A program made the translations under genes and the position numbers. A DNA stretch of 64,000 bases from Promethearchaeota archaeon. GTDB taxonomy: Archaea; Asgardarchaeota; Lokiarchaeia; Sigyniarchaeales; SOKP01. The stretch lies in contig JAGXNO010000003.1 in assembly GCA_019894975.1 (NCBI GenBank), positions 80,922-144,921 on the forward strand, read 5' to 3'. The number at the start of each line of letters is the position of its first letter. Position 1 is the stretch's first letter. Positions 44,283 to 51,592 of the stretch are shown one piece after another. Under the pieces are notes generated by a model that was not told where the DNA came from, searched no databases, and saw only the letters and a list, made by a program, of their open reading frames with translations.

Positions 44283-45689
44283 TTATTCATCTACAAGTCC
44301 ATATTTTGAAAGTCCTTTTCTCATATCAGCTTGAAAAGCCCCAGGAGTCCCTTCTATGAACGCGTTAGTTATATCTTGATTCTCAACAATAGTTGAAGCT
44401 CTTTTATTTGCTTTCTCTTCGGCAAGTGATGAAATTGCCATTCTTGCCATCTGTTGAAACTGAGGGGGTGATAACTCAATAAGAGCTTCAAAAATTTCCT
44501 TTGTCTCGCTATCCCAATCTAGCCCGGATTTTTTAAGTTCCTTTGGTTTAGCTGATTCGAGCCCAAATTCACGACTGGTCACAATATCATCCATATACTC
44601 TTTTAATGATACCACATATCTTTGAGATTCTTCACTGTTTAGCTTTACTGCTTTTTTTGCCCATTCTTCACAATAATTACATTCATTACACATTGCTAAG
44701 CAGTTTTGCTTCTTAAAAAAGTCTATGAACCCATCCAATTTGGTGTTGTCAATTATTAGTTTAGATTTTGATTCTTCACCAATTGTTTCAGTTAATTTCA
44801 CATTGGGGTCTTTTTGTTCTAAACCCCCAAAAGACATTGAGAATCCTTGAATTATATCTATAAGATTTCCATCGTACTTTCGCGAAGAGAAAGCTTTTAC
44901 AGATCTAGCAATCCATTGGGTTGACATACGGCGACCAGCTATTTTAAAATTATCTATTCCAATCGCTTCATAATGAGACAAATCTTCAGGTCGAACCCAT
45001 CTTGCTTTGATAACTTCAGTAGGATCAGAGAATTTGATAATACTACAGTTTAAGATGCACGTATCAATATAGTTACGCTCAAATTGTTGATGTGTTTGTG
45101 AAGCGTGTCCTAAGGTATTATAATGATATTGTCTAAAGGGACATTGATATAAACACCCATCAGTTAAAAGTACAATAATCTTACACTTCACAGCTTTTTT
45201 TATTTGTTCCAATGTCTTAAAATCACGATTTATCATCACTCCAAGAGTAATTTCATCTGCTCCTAGGTTTTCATAAAACATAGCTCGATTAACACTATTC
45301 ACGTGAGCAATTGTAGAGACACGTATTTTTAGTTTTGGAAATTGTTCTTTAATGAGTTGTATTAAAAATGGAATCGATACTGTCACGCTATCGGCTCCGA
45401 TATCACTAATCCATTGTAGATATTTAAGTAATTCTTTATGATAATGTGGATCATATTCCATATTATTCATACATGGTGCATTAAGGAGATAAGAAAATTC
45501 CATATCTTTATCATGAACTTTCCTTATATAATCCGCGATATCTTCTTCGGATATTTGCTGCAATAAAAAAGACGGACGACCCCCTCCTACAATTGTGTGA
45601 TCTGAAACACCATATACCCCAGATACAGGATACTGAGCCAACTCATCAATTAGTGTTAAATCCCAATTTGTAGCAACATGAAGTTTTAT
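44283..45689 (-). CDS. U32-family Fe-S protein (putative O2-independent hydroxylase) with C-terminal shared helical domain, probable ATA start
   Basis: IKLHVATNWD N-terminus in frame upstream of TTG 45641; GGGR, YLLNAPC, CLYQCPF, WVRPED, FKIAGR. AGGTGA-gatag-ATA with an in-frame TAG just before. Confidence 0.82.
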   Translation of the reverse strand: MKLHVATNWDLTLIDELAQYPVSGVYGVSDHTIVGGGRPSFLLQQISEEDIADYIRKVHDKDMEFSYLLNAPCMNNMEYDPHYHKELLKYLQWISDIGADSVTVSIPFLIQLIKEQFPKLKIRVSTIAHVNSVNRAMFYENLGADEITLGVMINRDFKTLEQIKKAVKCKIIVLLTDGCLYQCPFRQYHYNTLGHASQTHQQFERNYIDTCILNCSIIKFSDPTEVIKARWVRPEDLSHYEAIGIDNFKIAGRRMSTQWIARSVKAFSSRKYDGNLIDIIQGFSMSFGGLEQKDPNVKLTETIGEESKSKLIIDNTKLDGFIDFFKKQNCLAMCNECNYCEEWAKKAVKLNSEESQRYVVSLKEYMDDIVTSREFGLESAKPKELKKSGLDWDSETKEIFEALIELSPPQFQQMARMAISSLAEEKANKRASTIVENQDITNAFIEGTPGAFQADMRKGLSKYGLVDE

Positions 45690-45706
45690 CTATCTCACCT
45701 TGTTTT

Positions 45707-48815: not shown

Positions 48816-50225
48816 TTACTCAATTAATTCAATTTTTTCTTTTTCAGTTTGTTCTATTTCATGTTCATGATCATTTTCATGCCAACAAAATGGAAATGAC
48901 CCAAAGAAGTCACCTGTAATATATTCAGCAGTTACTCGACATCCCCCACCACAATACTTTAGATGATGGCAAGATGCACATTTTCCAGTTATCTTTTTTC
49001 TATCACGAATGTCTTTATAGATCTGGGAGTTTAAGACATCTTCAAATTTGACTTTTAAAGCATTACCAAGGGTTAAAGTTGTAGGATATCCTGCAGGGTA
49101 TATTGTACCGTCTATACCAACACCCATCATCGTTCTGCAAGCTAAACATCCTACACCCCATTCAATTGCTGCCATTTCCTTATCGTTTTTTGGTTGTTCC
49201 ATGAAGGGAACCATATCATAAATTTCATAAGCAGGTAGTGTACCAGCTTTACCTTGTTTTATAGTCTCAATTGCGTGTTTGTATTTAAAATCATACATCT
49301 TTTTATATTCATCTGTGTTGAGCCCAATTTCACCCCAAAATTCTGCAGCTCGATTTTGTTTAACAACGCATCTAAAATATGGTTGGGAACCCCATTTTTC
49401 GGATAAAGTTTTAAGCTCTTCTAACTCGTTTACATTATGTTTCATTATCGTAATAGACGAGCATACAAAAATTCCATATTTTAAACACAAATCTATAGCT
49501 TTTTTTGCATAATCTAAGGAATTGGGAAATCCACGAATTTCATCATTCTTCTTGGGATCAGCACTATCAAAACTTACAAATATGTGGCTGATATTGTTTT
49601 CCTTGCACATTTTCGCGAATTCTTCGTTAAAGCTAACACCATTAGTAATTAAAGAATGAATGTAGTCATTTTCTTTGCAAAATTTCATAATCTCGCCGAT
49701 ATCTTTACGAAGAGTAGGTTCACCACCGAACCATACGAAACAAGCGTGCCTACCTTGATTTCGCAGTCCCGTCTCAACATTTTCGATTATCTGACACCAT
49801 TGTTCAGTCGATAATTCTGGTCGTGGTATTTGATCATCCGCAGCACAGTGAAGGCATTTTTGGTTACATTTATCGGTAACATACATAGCGAAATGAATGT
49901 TTCCTGGATGAAATCCTCTTTCAATTTTCTCCCATTCAACTTTGAGTCTATCTTTAATTTCTTTAAGCTCTATGTAACGTTCAACATCAATATCTAATGA
50001 TTTTAAATCTTCAACCATAATAGGCTTAAAAGCTTCAGGGATTATGTCAAATATCCCCATGATCACGTCCGCGTCTTTAATATAAGCTCCATTTCGATCT
50101 AGACATCGTTCTTCTGCGGCTTTTACGATCAATGGTTCAACTGAAGGACGAAAACCTTGAGGCATTTGTTCTACGATTCTGCTAAATAATTCTTCTGTTT
50201 CTTTTTCCCATTCCATAAAATTCAT
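48816..50225 (-). CDS. Radical SAM/SPASM enzyme with N-terminal shared helical domain
   Basis: CNQKCLHC, GGEP, CLAC..GTIYPA, KCASCHHLKYCGGGCR..C. Confidence 0.88.
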   Translation of the reverse strand: MNFMEWEKETEELFSRIVEQMPQGFRPSVEPLIVKAAEERCLDRNGAYIKDADVIMGIFDIIPEAFKPIMVEDLKSLDIDVERYIELKEIKDRLKVEWEKIERGFHPGNIHFAMYVTDKCNQKCLHCAADDQIPRPELSTEQWCQIIENVETGLRNQGRHACFVWFGGEPTLRKDIGEIMKFCKENDYIHSLITNGVSFNEEFAKMCKENNISHIFVSFDSADPKKNDEIRGFPNSLDYAKKAIDLCLKYGIFVCSSITIMKHNVNELEELKTLSEKWGSQPYFRCVVKQNRAAEFWGEIGLNTDEYKKMYDFKYKHAIETIKQGKAGTLPAYEIYDMVPFMEQPKNDKEMAAIEWGVGCLACRTMMGVGIDGTIYPAGYPTTLTLGNALKVKFEDVLNSQIYKDIRDRKKITGKCASCHHLKYCGGGCRVTAEYITGDFFGSFPFCWHENDHEHEIEQTEKEKIELIE

Positions 50226-51592
50226 CTTTTTACTGTTTGATGAGTATGATCATCTTCATGCCAACAAAAAGGAAGCGCCGCTAAAAAATCCCCGGTTTCA
50301 TTTTCGGCATGGACTCTACAACCACCGCCGCACATATCAAGGTGATGACATGTTGAACACTTACCCTTAATGTTTCGATCCCTAATTGTCTTAAACATCT
50401 CAGATTCCATTATCTCTTCAAAATCCTGTTTAAATACGTTGCCCAATGTTAATTTAGATGGATAATCGCAGGGGAAAAAATCACCGTTAACGTCAATTCC
50501 TGAAACAGAACGACATGCTTGACATCCAACACCCCATTCTAACGCCGTAAGTTCCTCATCGTTGCGGGGACATTCCATGAAAGGAACCATGTCATAAGTG
50601 TATACCTTATTTAGGAATGATCCTTCGCCTTTTCTTATTGCATCAACAACATGTTTAAATTTAAAATCATAGAATTGACGGAATTTTTCGTAAGACAGTC
50701 CGATGTCGTTCCAATTTATCTCAGCAGTTCGTTGTTTGATAACAGCTCGAAAATATGGGATCGCACCAAAAGAATCTAATCTTTTCTTAATTTCTTCTAA
50801 CTCGTCAAAGTTTTCTTCTTGAACCGTAGCTGTACAAATGACTAAATGCCCATATTTTAATGCTAATTTTATAGCCTTTTCAGCGGCCTCATGTGCTTTT
50901 GGAACGCCCCTTATCTTTGCTGCTCTCTCAGGATAAACACTATCATAGCTGATAAATACGTGATGCATTTTGGCATCTGCGCAAACCCTCGCGAGTTCCT
51001 CGTCAAAAAGCATACCATTTGTTGAAATAGCTTGATAATAGCCCTTTTCTCCACAATATTTTATTAATTCCTTAATATCTTTTCGAAGAGTGGGTTCCCC
51101 CCCAAACCAGATGTAGCACCCTCGGCGACCTCGTTTTCGCAAAGTTTGTTCGACATTTTCAATAATTTGAATCCATTCTTCCGTTGAAAATTCTGGACGG
51201 TTTCCCATTAGTTCTGCTGCACAATGAATACATTTTTGGTTACATCTGTCACTCAGATACATAGTAAAATGGTAGACTCCAGGAGCCCACGCACCTCCGA
51301 CTTCATCCCATGTACGCGCAAATTTTTGTCGGATTTCTGAAAGTTTGATGTATCGGTCGGTATCGATTCCAATTGTTTTTAAATCTGCAACAACCGTAGG
51401 TTGAAACGCATCAGGTGTGATTTCAAATAGAGCTGATAGCAAATCATCTTTACTTACAAATCCAGAATTCCTAAGTGTTGCGGTTTTTTCAGCAGCCTCA
51501 CGTAGCATTGGTTTTACTGAAGCACGGAATCCTTCGGGAGTTAAATCGGTAATTTTCGTGTATAAATCTTCAATTTCTTTATTCCATTCCAT
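50222..51592 (-). CDS. Radical SAM/SPASM enzyme with N-terminal shared helical domain, paralog of 48816..50225
   Basis: CNQKCIHC, GGEP, CQAC..GDFFPC, KCSTCHHLDMCGGGCR..C. AGGTGA 5 nt before ATG 51592; ATGA overlap with the next gene. Confidence 0.88.
   Translation of the reverse strand: MEWNKEIEDLYTKITDLTPEGFRASVKPMLREAAEKTATLRNSGFVSKDDLLSALFEITPDAFQPTVVADLKTIGIDTDRYIKLSEIRQKFARTWDEVGGAWAPGVYHFTMYLSDRCNQKCIHCAAELMGNRPEFSTEEWIQIIENVEQTLRKRGRRGCYIWFGGEPTLRKDIKELIKYCGEKGYYQAISTNGMLFDEELARVCADAKMHHVFISYDSVYPERAAKIRGVPKAHEAAEKAIKLALKYGHLVICTATVQEENFDELEEIKKRLDSFGAIPYFRAVIKQRTAEINWNDIGLSYEKFRQFYDFKFKHVVDAIRKGEGSFLNKVYTYDMVPFMECPRNDEELTALEWGVGCQACRSVSGIDVNGDFFPCDYPSKLTLGNVFKQDFEEIMESEMFKTIRDRNIKGKCSTCHHLDMCGGGCRVHAENETGDFLAALPFCWHEDDHTHQTVKR

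What the first reader, a model, noticed from the sequence alone, without database searches (positions are those of the whole stretch)
44283..51592. Six-gene operon for a candidate new O2-independent prenylated-aromatic or quinone-like pathway
Seen: six tightly packed minus-strand genes (gaps under 65 bp, one ATGA overlap) in the order rSAM/SPASM, rSAM/SPASM, B12-rSAM, ABBA aromatic prenyltransferase, SCP2 protein, U32 protein. Established: an SCP2 protein (UbiT) plus U32 Fe-S proteins (UbiU/UbiV) carry out anaerobic ring hydroxylation in ubiquinone synthesis; ABBA enzymes (CloQ, NphB) prenylate aromatic rings; B12-rSAMs commonly methylate. Inference: the operon supplies prenylation, hydroxylation, methylation, radical tailoring and lipid carriage for one hydrophobic product, such as a membrane redox carrier or a meroterpenoid. 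I know of no described pathway with this combination in archaea.
Basis: partly seen in the sequence, partly recalled or inferred. Interest (0 to 1): 0.92.

Follow-up and report, generated by a model that had tools for sequence, protein, structure and literature searches.

The report
Asgard oxygen-free aromatic-lipid tailoring gene cluster
The six genes are real, but they belong to an eight-gene, horizontally shuffled accessory cluster of some Lokiarchaeia that most likely hydroxylates, methylates and sometimes prenylates an unknown greasy aromatic compound without oxygen; no such pathway has been described, and it is probably not a core respiratory quinone.

Summary
Observation confirmed and extended. 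All six domain assignments hold:
- ABBA prenyltransferase: Pfam 179 bits; model TM 0.92 to AmbP3.
- SCP2: model pLDDT 95; best PDB match is UbiJ-SCP2.
- Divergent U32: 57 bits; 5d88 at 2.6e-11.
- Two rSAM/SPASM enzymes and one B12-rSAM.

The conserved unit is eight genes (44283-53978). Upstream it adds a Ta0216-like B12-rSAM and a 227-aa membrane protein. Gene order is kept in about 25 loci.

Results that change the reading:
1. SPASM2, B12-rSAM and the prenyltransferase form an optional insert. Three genomes carry only B12-rSAM, membrane protein, SPASM1, SCP2 and U32, or a smaller set.
2. The cluster is patchy: PF11468 occurs in 19 of 301 genomes of the phylum and 2 of 22 of the genus. Gene trees are mosaic and disagree with genus assignment.
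3. The closest non-Asgard relatives of this U32 sit beside type II PKS-like genes or a UbiA prenyltransferase.
4. One archaeal variant abuts a shikimate-to-chorismate-mutase operon.
5. A CDP-alcohol transferase, GT2 and LuxE-like trio is a recurrent neighbour.

Best reading (about 0.5): O2-independent tailoring of a hydrophobic aromatic specialised metabolite, working like UbiT/U/V but not a member of that system. A respiratory quinone is unlikely.

This scan has noted the same cluster before in at least ten other genomes. I found no paper describing it.

The parts
52503..53978 (-). B12-binding radical SAM enzyme, Ta0216-like (B12a); first gene of the conserved unit
   Evidence: Pfam B12-binding 51 bits and Radical_SAM 34 bits. 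TIGR04190 scores 257 bits, below its cut-off of 500. CPFNCPFC motif present. It holds the same position in L004, L018, L023, L025, L028, L030, L035, L036 and L037.
51672..52355 (-). 227-aa membrane protein of unknown family: conserved N-terminal half of about 105 aa with two hydrophobic helices, and a variable low-complexity tail
   Evidence: No Pfam or NCBIfam hit. Alignment of 17 homologues. The Atlas search gave nothing usable.
50222..51592 (-). Radical SAM/SPASM enzyme 1 (NirJ/AhbD-like) with the shared N-terminal module; part of the minimal core
   Evidence: best TIGR04545 at 137 bits, below its cut-off of 500. Module alignment A1. Present in the PTase-less loci L035 and L036.
48816..50225 (-). 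Radical SAM/SPASM enzyme 2 with the shared N-terminal module; part of the optional insert
   Evidence: Absent from L034, L035 and L036. Fused to PTase_Orf2 in a 999-aa protein on a JGI contig.
47385..48800 (-). B12-binding radical SAM enzyme (B12b)
   Evidence: Pfam hits. TIGR04072 scores 268 bits (cut-off 360) and BzaD 213 bits (cut-off 450).
46158..47330 (-). Soluble ABBA (PT-barrel) aromatic prenyltransferase with the shared N-terminal module (residues 1-90)
   Evidence: PF11468 at 179 bits. PDB sequence matches: AmbP3/FamD1 at 7e-41, then AmbP1, EpzP and NphB. AF2 model pLDDT 93.9; Foldseek to 5y7c gives TM 0.92, rmsd 2.2.
45707..46096 (-). SCP2-fold lipid-binding protein (129 aa from ATG 46096)
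   Evidence: Pfam SCP2 at 22.4 bits against a cut-off of 21.3. In the profile search against PDB, the top three hits are all SCP2, at about 0.006. AF2 model pLDDT 95.3; best PDB match is UbiJ-SCP2 6h6p, TM 0.65-0.71.
44283..45689 (-). Divergent U32-family Fe-S protein with the shared module at its C-terminus; probable ATA start at 45689
   Evidence: PF01136 at 57 bits over profile positions 2-86. 5d88 at 2.6e-11. Invariant C73/C179/C183/C215 and C330-x3-C-x2-C-x2-C340 across 10 diverse homologues. The N-terminal extension is conserved.
47061..47330 (-). Shared helical module of about 85 aa (DUF2621/PCP_red-like), copy on the prenyltransferase. Other copies lie at about 49941-50216, 51317-51592 and 44286-44543.
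   Evidence: Alignment A1. In the own genome it occurs only on these four genes, apart from one marginal hit. DUF2621 matches 12 of 14 copies and PCP_red 2 of 14. It is on the same enzyme types in all loci.
40559..44214 (+). Recurrent neighbours: CDP-alcohol phosphatidyltransferase (AIP-synthase-like), GT2 glycosyltransferase and a LuxE/PaaK-like adenylating enzyme, convergent on the cluster
   Evidence: Adjacent to the cluster in L018, L022, L023, L024, L025, L027, L028, L034, L036, L037 and L048. 24 of 25 U32-bearing genomes have the CDP-OH orthologue, as do 10 genomes without the cluster.

Best explanation
This is an accessory, laterally exchanged biosynthetic gene cluster. It tailors a hydrophobic, probably membrane-associated aromatic small molecule without O2.

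Shown: the enzyme families, their conserved linkage, their fusions and their distribution.

Inferred:
- The SCP2 protein holds the greasy substrate.
- The divergent U32 Fe-S protein hydroxylates an aromatic ring, using prephenate as the oxygen donor, as proposed for UbiU/V.
- The B12-rSAM enzymes C-methylate or do other radical chemistry.
- The NirJ/AhbD-like rSAM/SPASM enzymes perform radical C-C or C-H chemistry on the scaffold.
- Where present, as in this window, the ABBA prenyltransferase adds a short (C5-C15) prenyl group as a tailoring step.
- The 85-aa module on four enzymes is a shared adaptor whose partner is unknown.

The product is more likely a specialised metabolite or optional membrane component than a housekeeping respiratory quinone.
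For: - Family assignments hold.
- Conserved eight-gene order in about 25 loci.
- Rosetta-stone fusions: U32-module-SCP2, rSAM/SPASM-SCP2 and rSAM/SPASM-PTase.
- Aromatic substrate, point 1: the PTase falls in the small-molecule AmbP/EpzP/NphB/CloQ clade (E 1e-30 to 1e-19). It is far from the peptide prenyltransferases PagF and LimF (E about 1e-5).
- Aromatic substrate, point 2: the nearest non-Asgard relatives of this U32 subfamily (33-42% identity, E 1e-75 to 1e-92) lie next to a polyketide cyclase with two ketosynthases, a small ORF and ACPS plus rSAMs (L047). Others lie next to two ketosynthases, an ACP and a B12-rSAM (L043), or form a tandem U32 pair with UbiA (L044/L046).
- Aromatic substrate, point 3: a divergent archaeal version of the cluster is contiguous with a complete shikimate-chorismate-chorismate mutase operon.
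- Prephenate is the O donor for UbiU/V. The mechanism proposed there requires an aromatic ring (PMC10990095).
- The own genome encodes chorismate synthase and chorismate mutase.
- Accessory nature: PF11468 is in 19 of 301 genomes of the phylum and 2 of 22 of the genus. The U32 type is in 25 of 71 genomes of the family. A congener has the same neighbourhood without the cluster (L040).
- Mosaic history: the window's SPASM1 is sister to G270 (96% identity, support 100/100), but its U32 is sister to G071 (89%) while G270's U32 is only 69% identical. The neighbouring CDP-OH transferase groups by genus among the rows available.
Against: - No enzyme in the cluster obviously builds an aromatic ring: there is no PKS, chorismate-using enzyme or UbiA.
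- Variants without the prenyltransferase still carry SCP2 and U32, so the source of hydrophobicity is unexplained.
- B12-rSAM and SPASM-rSAM enzymes in archaea have precedents on saturated isoprenoid tails (Grs, Gmm, Ted, Tes, Gms; bioRxiv 10.1101/2025.10.20.683597, PMC13459092).
- The recurrent neighbours are lipid head-group and glycan enzymes.
- Shikimate adjacency was seen in one locus only. None of the other fetched loci has it.
- No U32 enzyme has yet been shown active in vitro (PMC10990095).
- No expression data could be obtained.
Confidence: 0.5

Rival explanations
1. The cluster tailors the cell's own isoprenoid ether lipids (archaeol or GDGT tails, or their head groups). It does so by radical methylation, desaturation, cyclisation or cross-linking and anaerobic hydroxylation. 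SCP2 extracts the lipid, and the CDP-alcohol transferase and GT2 neighbours install a matching head group.
For: - Archaeal B12-rSAM and SPASM-type rSAM enzymes are the known modifiers of GDGT tails (bioRxiv 10.1101/2025.10.20.683597; PMC13459092).
- The best NCBIfam hit of B12b is the 'lipid biosynthesis B12-binding/radical SAM' model TIGR04072.
- SCP2 fold.
- A membrane protein is in the core.
- CDP-OH transferase, GT2 and LuxE-like genes flank the cluster in at least 11 loci, and 24 of 25 cluster genomes carry the CDP-OH orthologue.
- The core exists without the prenyltransferase.
Against: - All characterised ABBA prenyltransferases need an electron-rich aromatic or heteroatom nucleophile, which isoprenoid tails lack.
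- Known and proposed U32 chemistry acts on aromatic or heteroaromatic ring carbons (PMC10990095).
- Relatives of this U32 sit in PKS-like and UbiA contexts.
- SPASM1 and SPASM2 score only 58 bits against the Tes model, whose cut-off is 450.
- The CDP-OH trio also occurs in 10 genomes without the cluster, and in G207 it lies on a different contig from the cluster.
Confidence: 0.22
2. One reading: the cluster makes a new O2-independent membrane redox carrier, a quinone-like prenylated ring, that serves energy metabolism.
For: - An SCP2 plus U32 pair as in UbiT/U/V (PMC6747719). The best structural match of the SCP2 is UbiJ.
- A prenyltransferase and methylase-type enzymes are present.
- The own genome lacks MqnA, so no futalosine route to menaquinone was found.
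- The Dehalococcoidia relatives pair this U32 type with UbiA.
Against: - Distribution is patchy (2 of 22 genomes of the genus) and history is mosaic, which is unlike an essential carrier.
- The prenyltransferase is dispensable in some clusters.
- The characterised relatives of this ABBA prenyltransferase use C5-C10 donors, not the long polyprenyl tails installed by UbiA-type enzymes (titles; otherwise established knowledge).
- There is no ring-forming, decarboxylase or O-methyltransferase gene in the cluster.
- No quinone-dependent complex is linked to it.
Confidence: 0.1
3. A RiPP-like pathway: rSAM/SPASM maturases, a B12-rSAM methylase and a prenyltransferase modify a peptide. The shared module acts as a leader-binding domain, and the 227-aa protein or an unannotated small ORF is the substrate.
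For: - An N-terminal extension precedes the rSAM core, as in many SPASM peptide maturases.
- There are weak hits to the MftC, PqqE and WgkB models.
- One non-catalytic domain is shared by several enzymes of a cluster, as RRE domains are.
- The 227-aa protein has a conserved N-terminal half and a variable C-terminal half.
Against: - The intergenic gaps (at most 147 bp) leave no room for a precursor gene.
- No PqqD/RRE domain was found.
- The conserved half of the 227-aa protein consists of transmembrane helices, and its tail is low-complexity.
- The prenyltransferase is far from the peptide prenyltransferases PagF and LimF.
- SCP2 and U32 have no RiPP precedent known to me.
- A bacterial module-PTase homologue stands alone (L003).
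Confidence: 0.05

Closest known systems
UbiT/UbiU/UbiV, the O2-independent ubiquinone hydroxylation system of Proteobacteria (PMC6747719; O donor prephenate, PMC10990095)
   Same: - An SCP2 lipid-binding protein is encoded next to a U32-family Fe-S protein.
- SCP2-U32 gene fusions occur in both systems: Zymomonas ubiT-ubiU there, and the U32-module-SCP2 fusion of about 683 aa here.
- Both have four conserved Cys.
- Both are anaerobic settings.
   Different: - Only about 19-20% identity to E. coli UbiU and UbiV in the multiple alignment. Pfam U32 covers just the first third.
- One U32 here, not a UbiU/UbiV heterodimer pair.
- A different Cys arrangement, plus a second CX3CX2CX2C motif and a C-terminal adaptor module.
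- No Ubi genes in the cluster.
- Pelosi et al. found no ubiT/U/V co-occurrence outside Proteobacteria and Acidithiobacillia.
Soluble ABBA prenyltransferases AmbP3/FamD1, AmbP1, EpzP, NphB and CloQ (bacterial meroterpenoid, hapalindole, phenazine and aminocoumarin pathways)
   Same: - The same PT-barrel fold: TM 0.92 to AmbP3, 28-31% identity.
- The conserved motifs GLSKIW, TNIYF, ERLCF and YYKIE align with AmbP3.
   Different: - It is archaeal.
- It carries a 90-aa N-terminal helical module that no solved member has.
- It is embedded among rSAM, U32 and SCP2 genes instead of PKS, phenazine or isonitrile genes.
- Acceptor and donor are unknown.
Archaeal lipid-modifying radical SAM enzymes (Tes, Gms, GrsA/B, GMGT/GDGT methylases, Ted; bioRxiv 10.1101/2025.10.20.683597, PMC13459092)
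   Same: B12-rSAM and SPASM-type rSAM enzymes acting anaerobically on hydrophobic substrates in archaea.
   Different: - None of those systems includes SCP2, U32 or an ABBA prenyltransferase.
- The window's rSAMs fall below every curated family cut-off.
Pfam DUF2621 (PF11084) and PCP_red (PF08369, the C-terminal helical tail of BchB/ChlB)
   Same: The 85-aa module gives sub-threshold matches to DUF2621 in 12 of 14 copies (best 1.8e-08) and to PCP_red in 2 of 14.
   Different: - All matches are below the gathering scores.
- There is no PDB sequence hit.
- Here the module is fused to three unrelated catalytic folds within one cluster.

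Membership tests
ABBA/PT-barrel aromatic prenyltransferase (PF11468) | Family HMM above the curated threshold over the full domain | tested here: met
   179 bits against a cut-off of 22, profile positions 3-283 of 287.
ABBA/PT-barrel aromatic prenyltransferase (PF11468) | Ten-strand alpha-beta-beta-alpha barrel fold | tested here: met
   AF2 pLDDT 93.9, pTM 0.90. Foldseek to AmbP3 5y7c: E 2.6e-30, target TM 0.92, rmsd 2.2. 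EpzP, NphB and CloQ also match.
ABBA/PT-barrel aromatic prenyltransferase (PF11468) | Conserved basic and Tyr residues that bind the prenyl diphosphate | tested here: inconclusive
   K207, N258, Y260, R313, K364 and Y369 are invariant in 27 homologues and lie in motifs shared with AmbP3. Their role as diphosphate ligands comes from my memory of NphB and CloQ and was not checked on coordinates.
ABBA/PT-barrel aromatic prenyltransferase (PF11468) | Prenyl transfer to an aromatic acceptor | not testable with these tools
   Needs an enzyme assay.
UbiT/UbiU/UbiV O2-independent hydroxylase system | U32 domain protein | tested here: met
   PF01136 at 57 bits against a cut-off of 22.4, but only profile positions 2-86. 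5d88 at 2.6e-11. The three canonical U32 proteins of the same genome score about 263 bits.
UbiT/UbiU/UbiV O2-independent hydroxylase system | Four conserved Cys binding a [4Fe-4S] cluster at the UbiU or UbiV positions | tested here: inconclusive
   C73, C179, C183 and C215 are invariant in 10 diverse subfamily members. Only some align with the UbiU C176/C193 positions or the UbiV C39 position. The UbiU C232/UbiV C180 position is Ala in the window protein.
UbiT/UbiU/UbiV O2-independent hydroxylase system | Two paralogous U32 subunits forming a heterodimer | tested here: not met
   The window cluster has one U32 gene. Other loci add a 383-aa U32-like protein and a U32-SCP2 fusion.
UbiT/UbiU/UbiV O2-independent hydroxylase system | SCP2 accessory protein encoded alongside | tested here: met
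   The adjacent 129-aa protein has the SCP2 fold, and its top PDB match is UbiJ-SCP2. BLASTP finds no sequence similarity to E. coli UbiT (E 15).
UbiT/UbiU/UbiV O2-independent hydroxylase system | Occurs in genomes with a ubiquinone pathway | tested here: not met
   The host is an Asgard archaeon and the cluster holds no Ubi genes. Pelosi et al. restrict the trio to Proteobacteria and Acidithiobacillia.
Radical SAM/SPASM; AhbD, AhbC and NirJ equivalogs | Score above the curated equivalog cut-off | tested here: not met
   The best scores are 137-139 bits against cut-offs of 500-650. The generic Radical_SAM and SPASM Pfam domains are met.
B12-rSAM equivalogs (TIGR04190 Ta0216, TIGR04072 lipid B12-rSAM, BzaD) | Score above the curated cut-off | tested here: not met
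   257 bits (cut-off 500), 268 bits (cut-off 360) and 213 bits (cut-off 450). The generic B12-binding and Radical_SAM domains are met.
RiPP biosynthetic cluster | Precursor peptide gene and an RRE/PqqD-like recognition domain | tested here: not met
   The gaps of at most 147 bp leave no room for one, no PqqD hit was found, and the 227-aa protein is a membrane protein with a low-complexity tail.
Respiratory isoprenoid-quinone pathway | Membrane UbiA/MenA-type polyprenyltransferase and ring-forming enzymes linked to the cluster; near-universal presence within the lineage | tested here: not met
   No UbiA gene lies in or beside any Asgard locus examined. MqnA was not found in the genome. The cluster is present in 2 of 22 genomes of the genus.

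The most novel reading that the evidence does not exclude
Some Asgard archaea make a previously unknown class of prenylated, hydroxylated and methylated aromatic lipid entirely by O2-independent chemistry. A new prephenate-dependent U32 subfamily with two Fe-S sites works on substrate held by an SCP2 carrier. A new 85-aa adaptor domain assembles the enzymes into a metabolon. This would be the first U32/SCP2 hydroxylase system outside ubiquinone synthesis and the first functional ABBA prenyltransferase pathway in archaea.
Probability: 0.3. Interest if true: 0.85.

Novelty: new variant of a known kind. Interest (0 to 1): 0.64.

Why it matters
If the reading holds, three things follow.
- Prephenate-dependent U32 hydroxylation would extend from ubiquinone and RNA to specialised metabolism in archaea. 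The bacterial PKS-linked relatives suggest the same for anaerobic bacteria.
- Soluble ABBA prenyltransferases would gain a first archaeal pathway context.
- A portable adaptor domain that marks the enzymes of one pathway would be identified.

It also gives lipid and natural-product chemists a defined gene set to look for: a five-gene core and a three-gene optional insert. These can guide the search for unexplained compounds in Lokiarchaeia enrichments and anoxic sediments.

Tried and rejected
- Complex prediction of the module (A1) with SCP2 (A4): no verdict, score 0.00. This is evidence neither for nor against binding.
- Module profile against PDB sequences: nothing significant; the best hit was a histone-fold protein at E 0.022.
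- ESM Atlas for the 227-aa protein: no usable hit. For B12a: only generic B12-rSAM clusters.
- A 'Ta0216' literature search returned only unrelated text matches.
- tblastn of the genome's chorismate mutase and chorismate synthase against the fetched loci: no hit. The shikimate adjacency is therefore a single case.
- The marginal fifth module hit in the genome (E 0.002) lies at the C-terminus of a sulfatase, next to an anaerobic sulfatase-maturase-like rSAM. I treat it as unrelated or unresolved.
- I first assumed the cluster was a universally conserved Asgard trait, because source labels named Thor, Odin, Hod and Hermod. I rejected this after the genome sample: 19 of 301 genomes, nearly all in one family.
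- The search for homologous proteins on the U32 listed only close Asgard relatives. The exhaustive representative search was needed to reach the bacterial relatives.

Full report
**Observation.**
ORF listing and Pfam confirm six tightly packed minus-strand genes between 44283 and 51601, in the stated order:
- rSAM/SPASM
- rSAM/SPASM
- B12-binding rSAM
- PTase_Orf2 (179 bits)
- SCP2 (marginal: 21.7-22.4 bits against a cut-off of 21.3)
- Peptidase_U32 (57 bits, profile positions 2-86 only)

The ATGA overlap at 50222-50225 and the short gaps are as described.

Two further co-oriented genes belong to the unit:
- a B12-rSAM nearest the Ta0216 family (52503-53978; TIGR04190 at 257 bits, below its cut-off)
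- a 227-aa protein with two hydrophobic helices and no family (51672-52355)

**Checks of the weak assignments.**
- SCP2: the profile of 16 homologues finds only SCP2 structures at the top of the PDB list. The AF2 model (pLDDT 95.3) matches UbiJ-SCP2 best, with TM 0.65-0.71.
- U32: the profile matches the Methanopyrus U32 structure 5d88 at 2.6e-11. The protein is very divergent. The same genome has three canonical U32 proteins scoring about 263 bits, against 46 bits for this one in the genome search.
- Across ten diverse subfamily members, two sets of four Cys are invariant: C73/C179/C183/C215 and C330-x3-C-x2-C-x2-C340. This suggests two Fe-S sites. Only part of the first set aligns with the UbiU or UbiV ligands.
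- Prenyltransferase: securely an ABBA enzyme. PDB sequence matches are AmbP3/FamD1 at 7e-41, then AmbP1, EpzP, NphB and CloQ. The model has pLDDT 93.9 and TM 0.92 to AmbP3. The peptide prenyltransferases PagF and LimF match only at about 1e-5.

**Shared module.**
The prenyltransferase, both rSAM/SPASM enzymes (N-terminal) and U32 (C-terminal) carry one helical domain of about 85 aa (alignment A1). In this genome it occurs on these four genes only, apart from one marginal hit. It sits on the same enzyme types in every locus. It matches DUF2621 below threshold in 12 of 14 copies and PCP_red in 2 of 14. It has no PDB sequence relative. Its partner is unknown.

**Conservation and architecture.**
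Homologues of the prenyltransferase are all from Asgard MAGs, except for distant ones. Contexts from public contigs and from 24 regions taken out of species genomes show the same gene order.

The cluster is modular.
- Three genomes lack the prenyltransferase. L035 (same genus) and L036 carry B12a, the membrane protein, SPASM1, SCP2 and U32. L034 carries the membrane protein, SCP2, U32 and B12b.
- SPASM2, B12b and the PTase therefore form an optional insert.
- Other loci add a 383-aa U32-like protein, a U32-module-SCP2 fusion of about 683 aa, and rSAM/SPASM-SCP2 fusions.
- One JGI contig encodes a 999-aa rSAM/SPASM-PTase_Orf2 fusion.

These fusions are independent support for functional coupling.

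**Distribution.**
- PF11468 occurs in 19 of 301 sampled genomes of the phylum. Nearly all are in one family, and only 2 of 22 are in the window's genus.
- The cluster-type U32 is in 25 of 71 genomes of the family.
- A congener (L040) has the same neighbourhood without the cluster.

Gene trees are incongruent.
- The window's SPASM1 is sister to G270's (96% identity, support 100/100).
- Its U32 is sister to G071's (89%), while G270's U32 is only 69% identical and sits elsewhere in the tree.
- Genera are interleaved in both trees.
- The neighbouring CDP-alcohol transferase groups by genus among the rows available.

The cluster therefore behaves like a laterally exchanged, recombining accessory element.

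**Neighbours.**
A CDP-alcohol phosphatidyltransferase is nearest archaetidylinositol-phosphate synthase (70 bits, below its cut-off). With a GT2 and a LuxE/PaaK-like adenylating enzyme, it flanks the cluster in at least 11 loci. 24 of 25 cluster-bearing genomes have the transferase orthologue. So do 10 genomes without the cluster, and in G207 the two lie on different contigs. On the other side, a Zn-ribbon protein, a hexapeptide transferase and a GT2 recur. The link to lipid head-group and glycan genes is therefore real as synteny but not obligatory.

**What the U32 relatives say.**
An exhaustive search found 557 representative clusters at E<=1e-30. Most are module-less proteins of 360-420 aa. 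Six contexts were sampled.
- Dehalococcoidia, two near-identical loci: a tandem U32 pair followed by a UbiA prenyltransferase.
- A bacterial contig: polyketide cyclase, two ketosynthases, a small ORF, ACPS, a HemN-like rSAM, the U32, a cyclase and another rSAM. This layout is type II PKS-like.
- Another bacterium: the U32 next to two ketosynthases and an ACP, with a B12-rSAM about 6 kb upstream in the same direction.
- One context was uninformative.
- An archaeal variant of the cluster runs directly into a complete shikimate, chorismate synthase and chorismate mutase operon.

Prephenate, the product of chorismate mutase, is the oxygen donor of UbiU/V-dependent hydroxylation. The mechanism proposed there starts with oxidation of an aromatic ring (PMC10990095). 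The shikimate adjacency is a single case: no other fetched locus shows it. The own genome does encode chorismate synthase and chorismate mutase.

**Interpretation.**
The ABBA enzyme, the contexts of the U32 relatives and the known U32 chemistry point to an aromatic substrate. SCP2, the membrane protein and the neighbours point to a hydrophobic, membrane-associated one. Patchiness, modularity and mosaic phylogeny point to a specialised, dispensable product rather than a housekeeping respiratory quinone.

The genome lacks MqnA and has five UbiA-family genes and one UbiD elsewhere. None is linked to the cluster. The canonical ether-lipid genes (PcrB, UbiA, GGR) sit on another contig.

I therefore favour O2-independent tailoring of a greasy aromatic metabolite, with prenylation as an optional decoration (about 0.5). 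The alternatives are:
- tailoring of ordinary isoprenoid lipids or their head groups (about 0.2)
- a true redox quinone (about 0.1)
- a RiPP (about 0.05)

The main unexplained points are what builds the ring, and what makes the substrate hydrophobic in clusters without the prenyltransferase.

**Comparison with what is known.**
The system works like UbiT/U/V but fails membership on three counts: a single, very divergent U32; a different Cys pattern; and no ubiquinone context. Pelosi et al. found the trio only in Proteobacteria and Acidithiobacillia.

Literature searches found no paper combining Asgard archaea with aromatic or ABBA prenyltransferases, and none describing a U32/SCP2/rSAM cluster in archaea. 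Recent work on archaeal lipid rSAMs mentions neither SCP2, U32 nor prenyltransferases.

Earlier notes of this scan describe the same cluster and module in at least ten other genomes and reached similar readings.
- the PTase-less core
- the mosaic phylogeny
- the nested co-occurrence with the CDP-OH transferase
- the PKS, UbiA and shikimate contexts of the U32 subfamily

**Verdict.**
This is an undescribed variant built from known enzyme kinds. Its product is unknown.

Noticed in passing
window 45641-45692 (minus strand); also L023 8380-8470: The conserved U32 N-terminus (IKLHVATNWD...) lies upstream of the first ATG/GTG/TTG. It begins at ATA 45689, directly after an in-frame TAG and 6 nt after a GGTGA Shine-Dalgarno-like motif. 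G071 has the same ATA after an in-frame TAA, whereas G195 has a GTG three codons upstream and L004 an ATG. This suggests AUA initiation, or a truncated first strand.
   Followed up: partly
window 54105-58987 and 39135-44214: A conserved wider neighbourhood surrounds the cluster. One side holds a Zn-ribbon protein, a hexapeptide transferase, a GT2, UDP-galactopyranose mutase and a second LuxE-like gene. The other side holds an MSMEG_0568-family rSAM, a CDP-alcohol transferase, a GT2 and a LuxE-like gene. Parts recur in L025, L039, L048 and L049. Congener G008 has the flanks, rearranged, without the cluster.
   Followed up: partly
JGI contig of protein P0242 (no DNA fetched): A divergent archaeal version of the cluster has a 999-aa rSAM/SPASM-PTase_Orf2 fusion and two module-bearing U32 genes. 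It is immediately followed by a full archaeal-type shikimate pathway ending in chorismate mutase, then another B12-rSAM.
   Followed up: partly
L047 (JGI 3300042593 contig), 2981-14788: A bacterial, apparently anaerobic type II PKS-like cluster: cyclase, two ketosynthases, ACPS, a HemN-like rSAM, a 573-aa U32 of the same subfamily, a cyclase and another rSAM. It lies next to relaxase and T4SS coupling-protein genes. It is a candidate O2-independent aromatic polyketide hydroxylation system.
   Followed up: no
L044 and L046 (Dehalococcoidia MAG and related contig), 9001-12326: A tandem pair of U32-subfamily genes (375-381 aa and 348 aa) is followed by a UbiA prenyltransferase. This looks like a UbiU/V-style pair for a prenylated aromatic outside Proteobacteria.
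   Followed up: no
L033 (G109:C119) 1-8298: A locally duplicated cluster tail: B12b, PTase, SCP2, B12b, SCP2, a 547-aa U32 carrying two copies of the module, and a second U32.
   Followed up: no
G000:C44:16859-17083 (L041 16862-18637, minus strand): A 591-aa sulfatase gives a marginal match (E 0.002) to the shared module at its C-terminus. It sits next to an rSAM/SPASM protein with a SEC-C motif, which is anaerobic sulfatase-maturase-like.
   Followed up: partly
L003 10001-11185 (bacterial 1.2-Mb contig): A bacterial homologue (33% identity) keeps the module-prenyltransferase fusion but stands alone, with no rSAM, U32 or SCP2 neighbours. The module is therefore not strictly tied to the Asgard cluster.
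   Followed up: no
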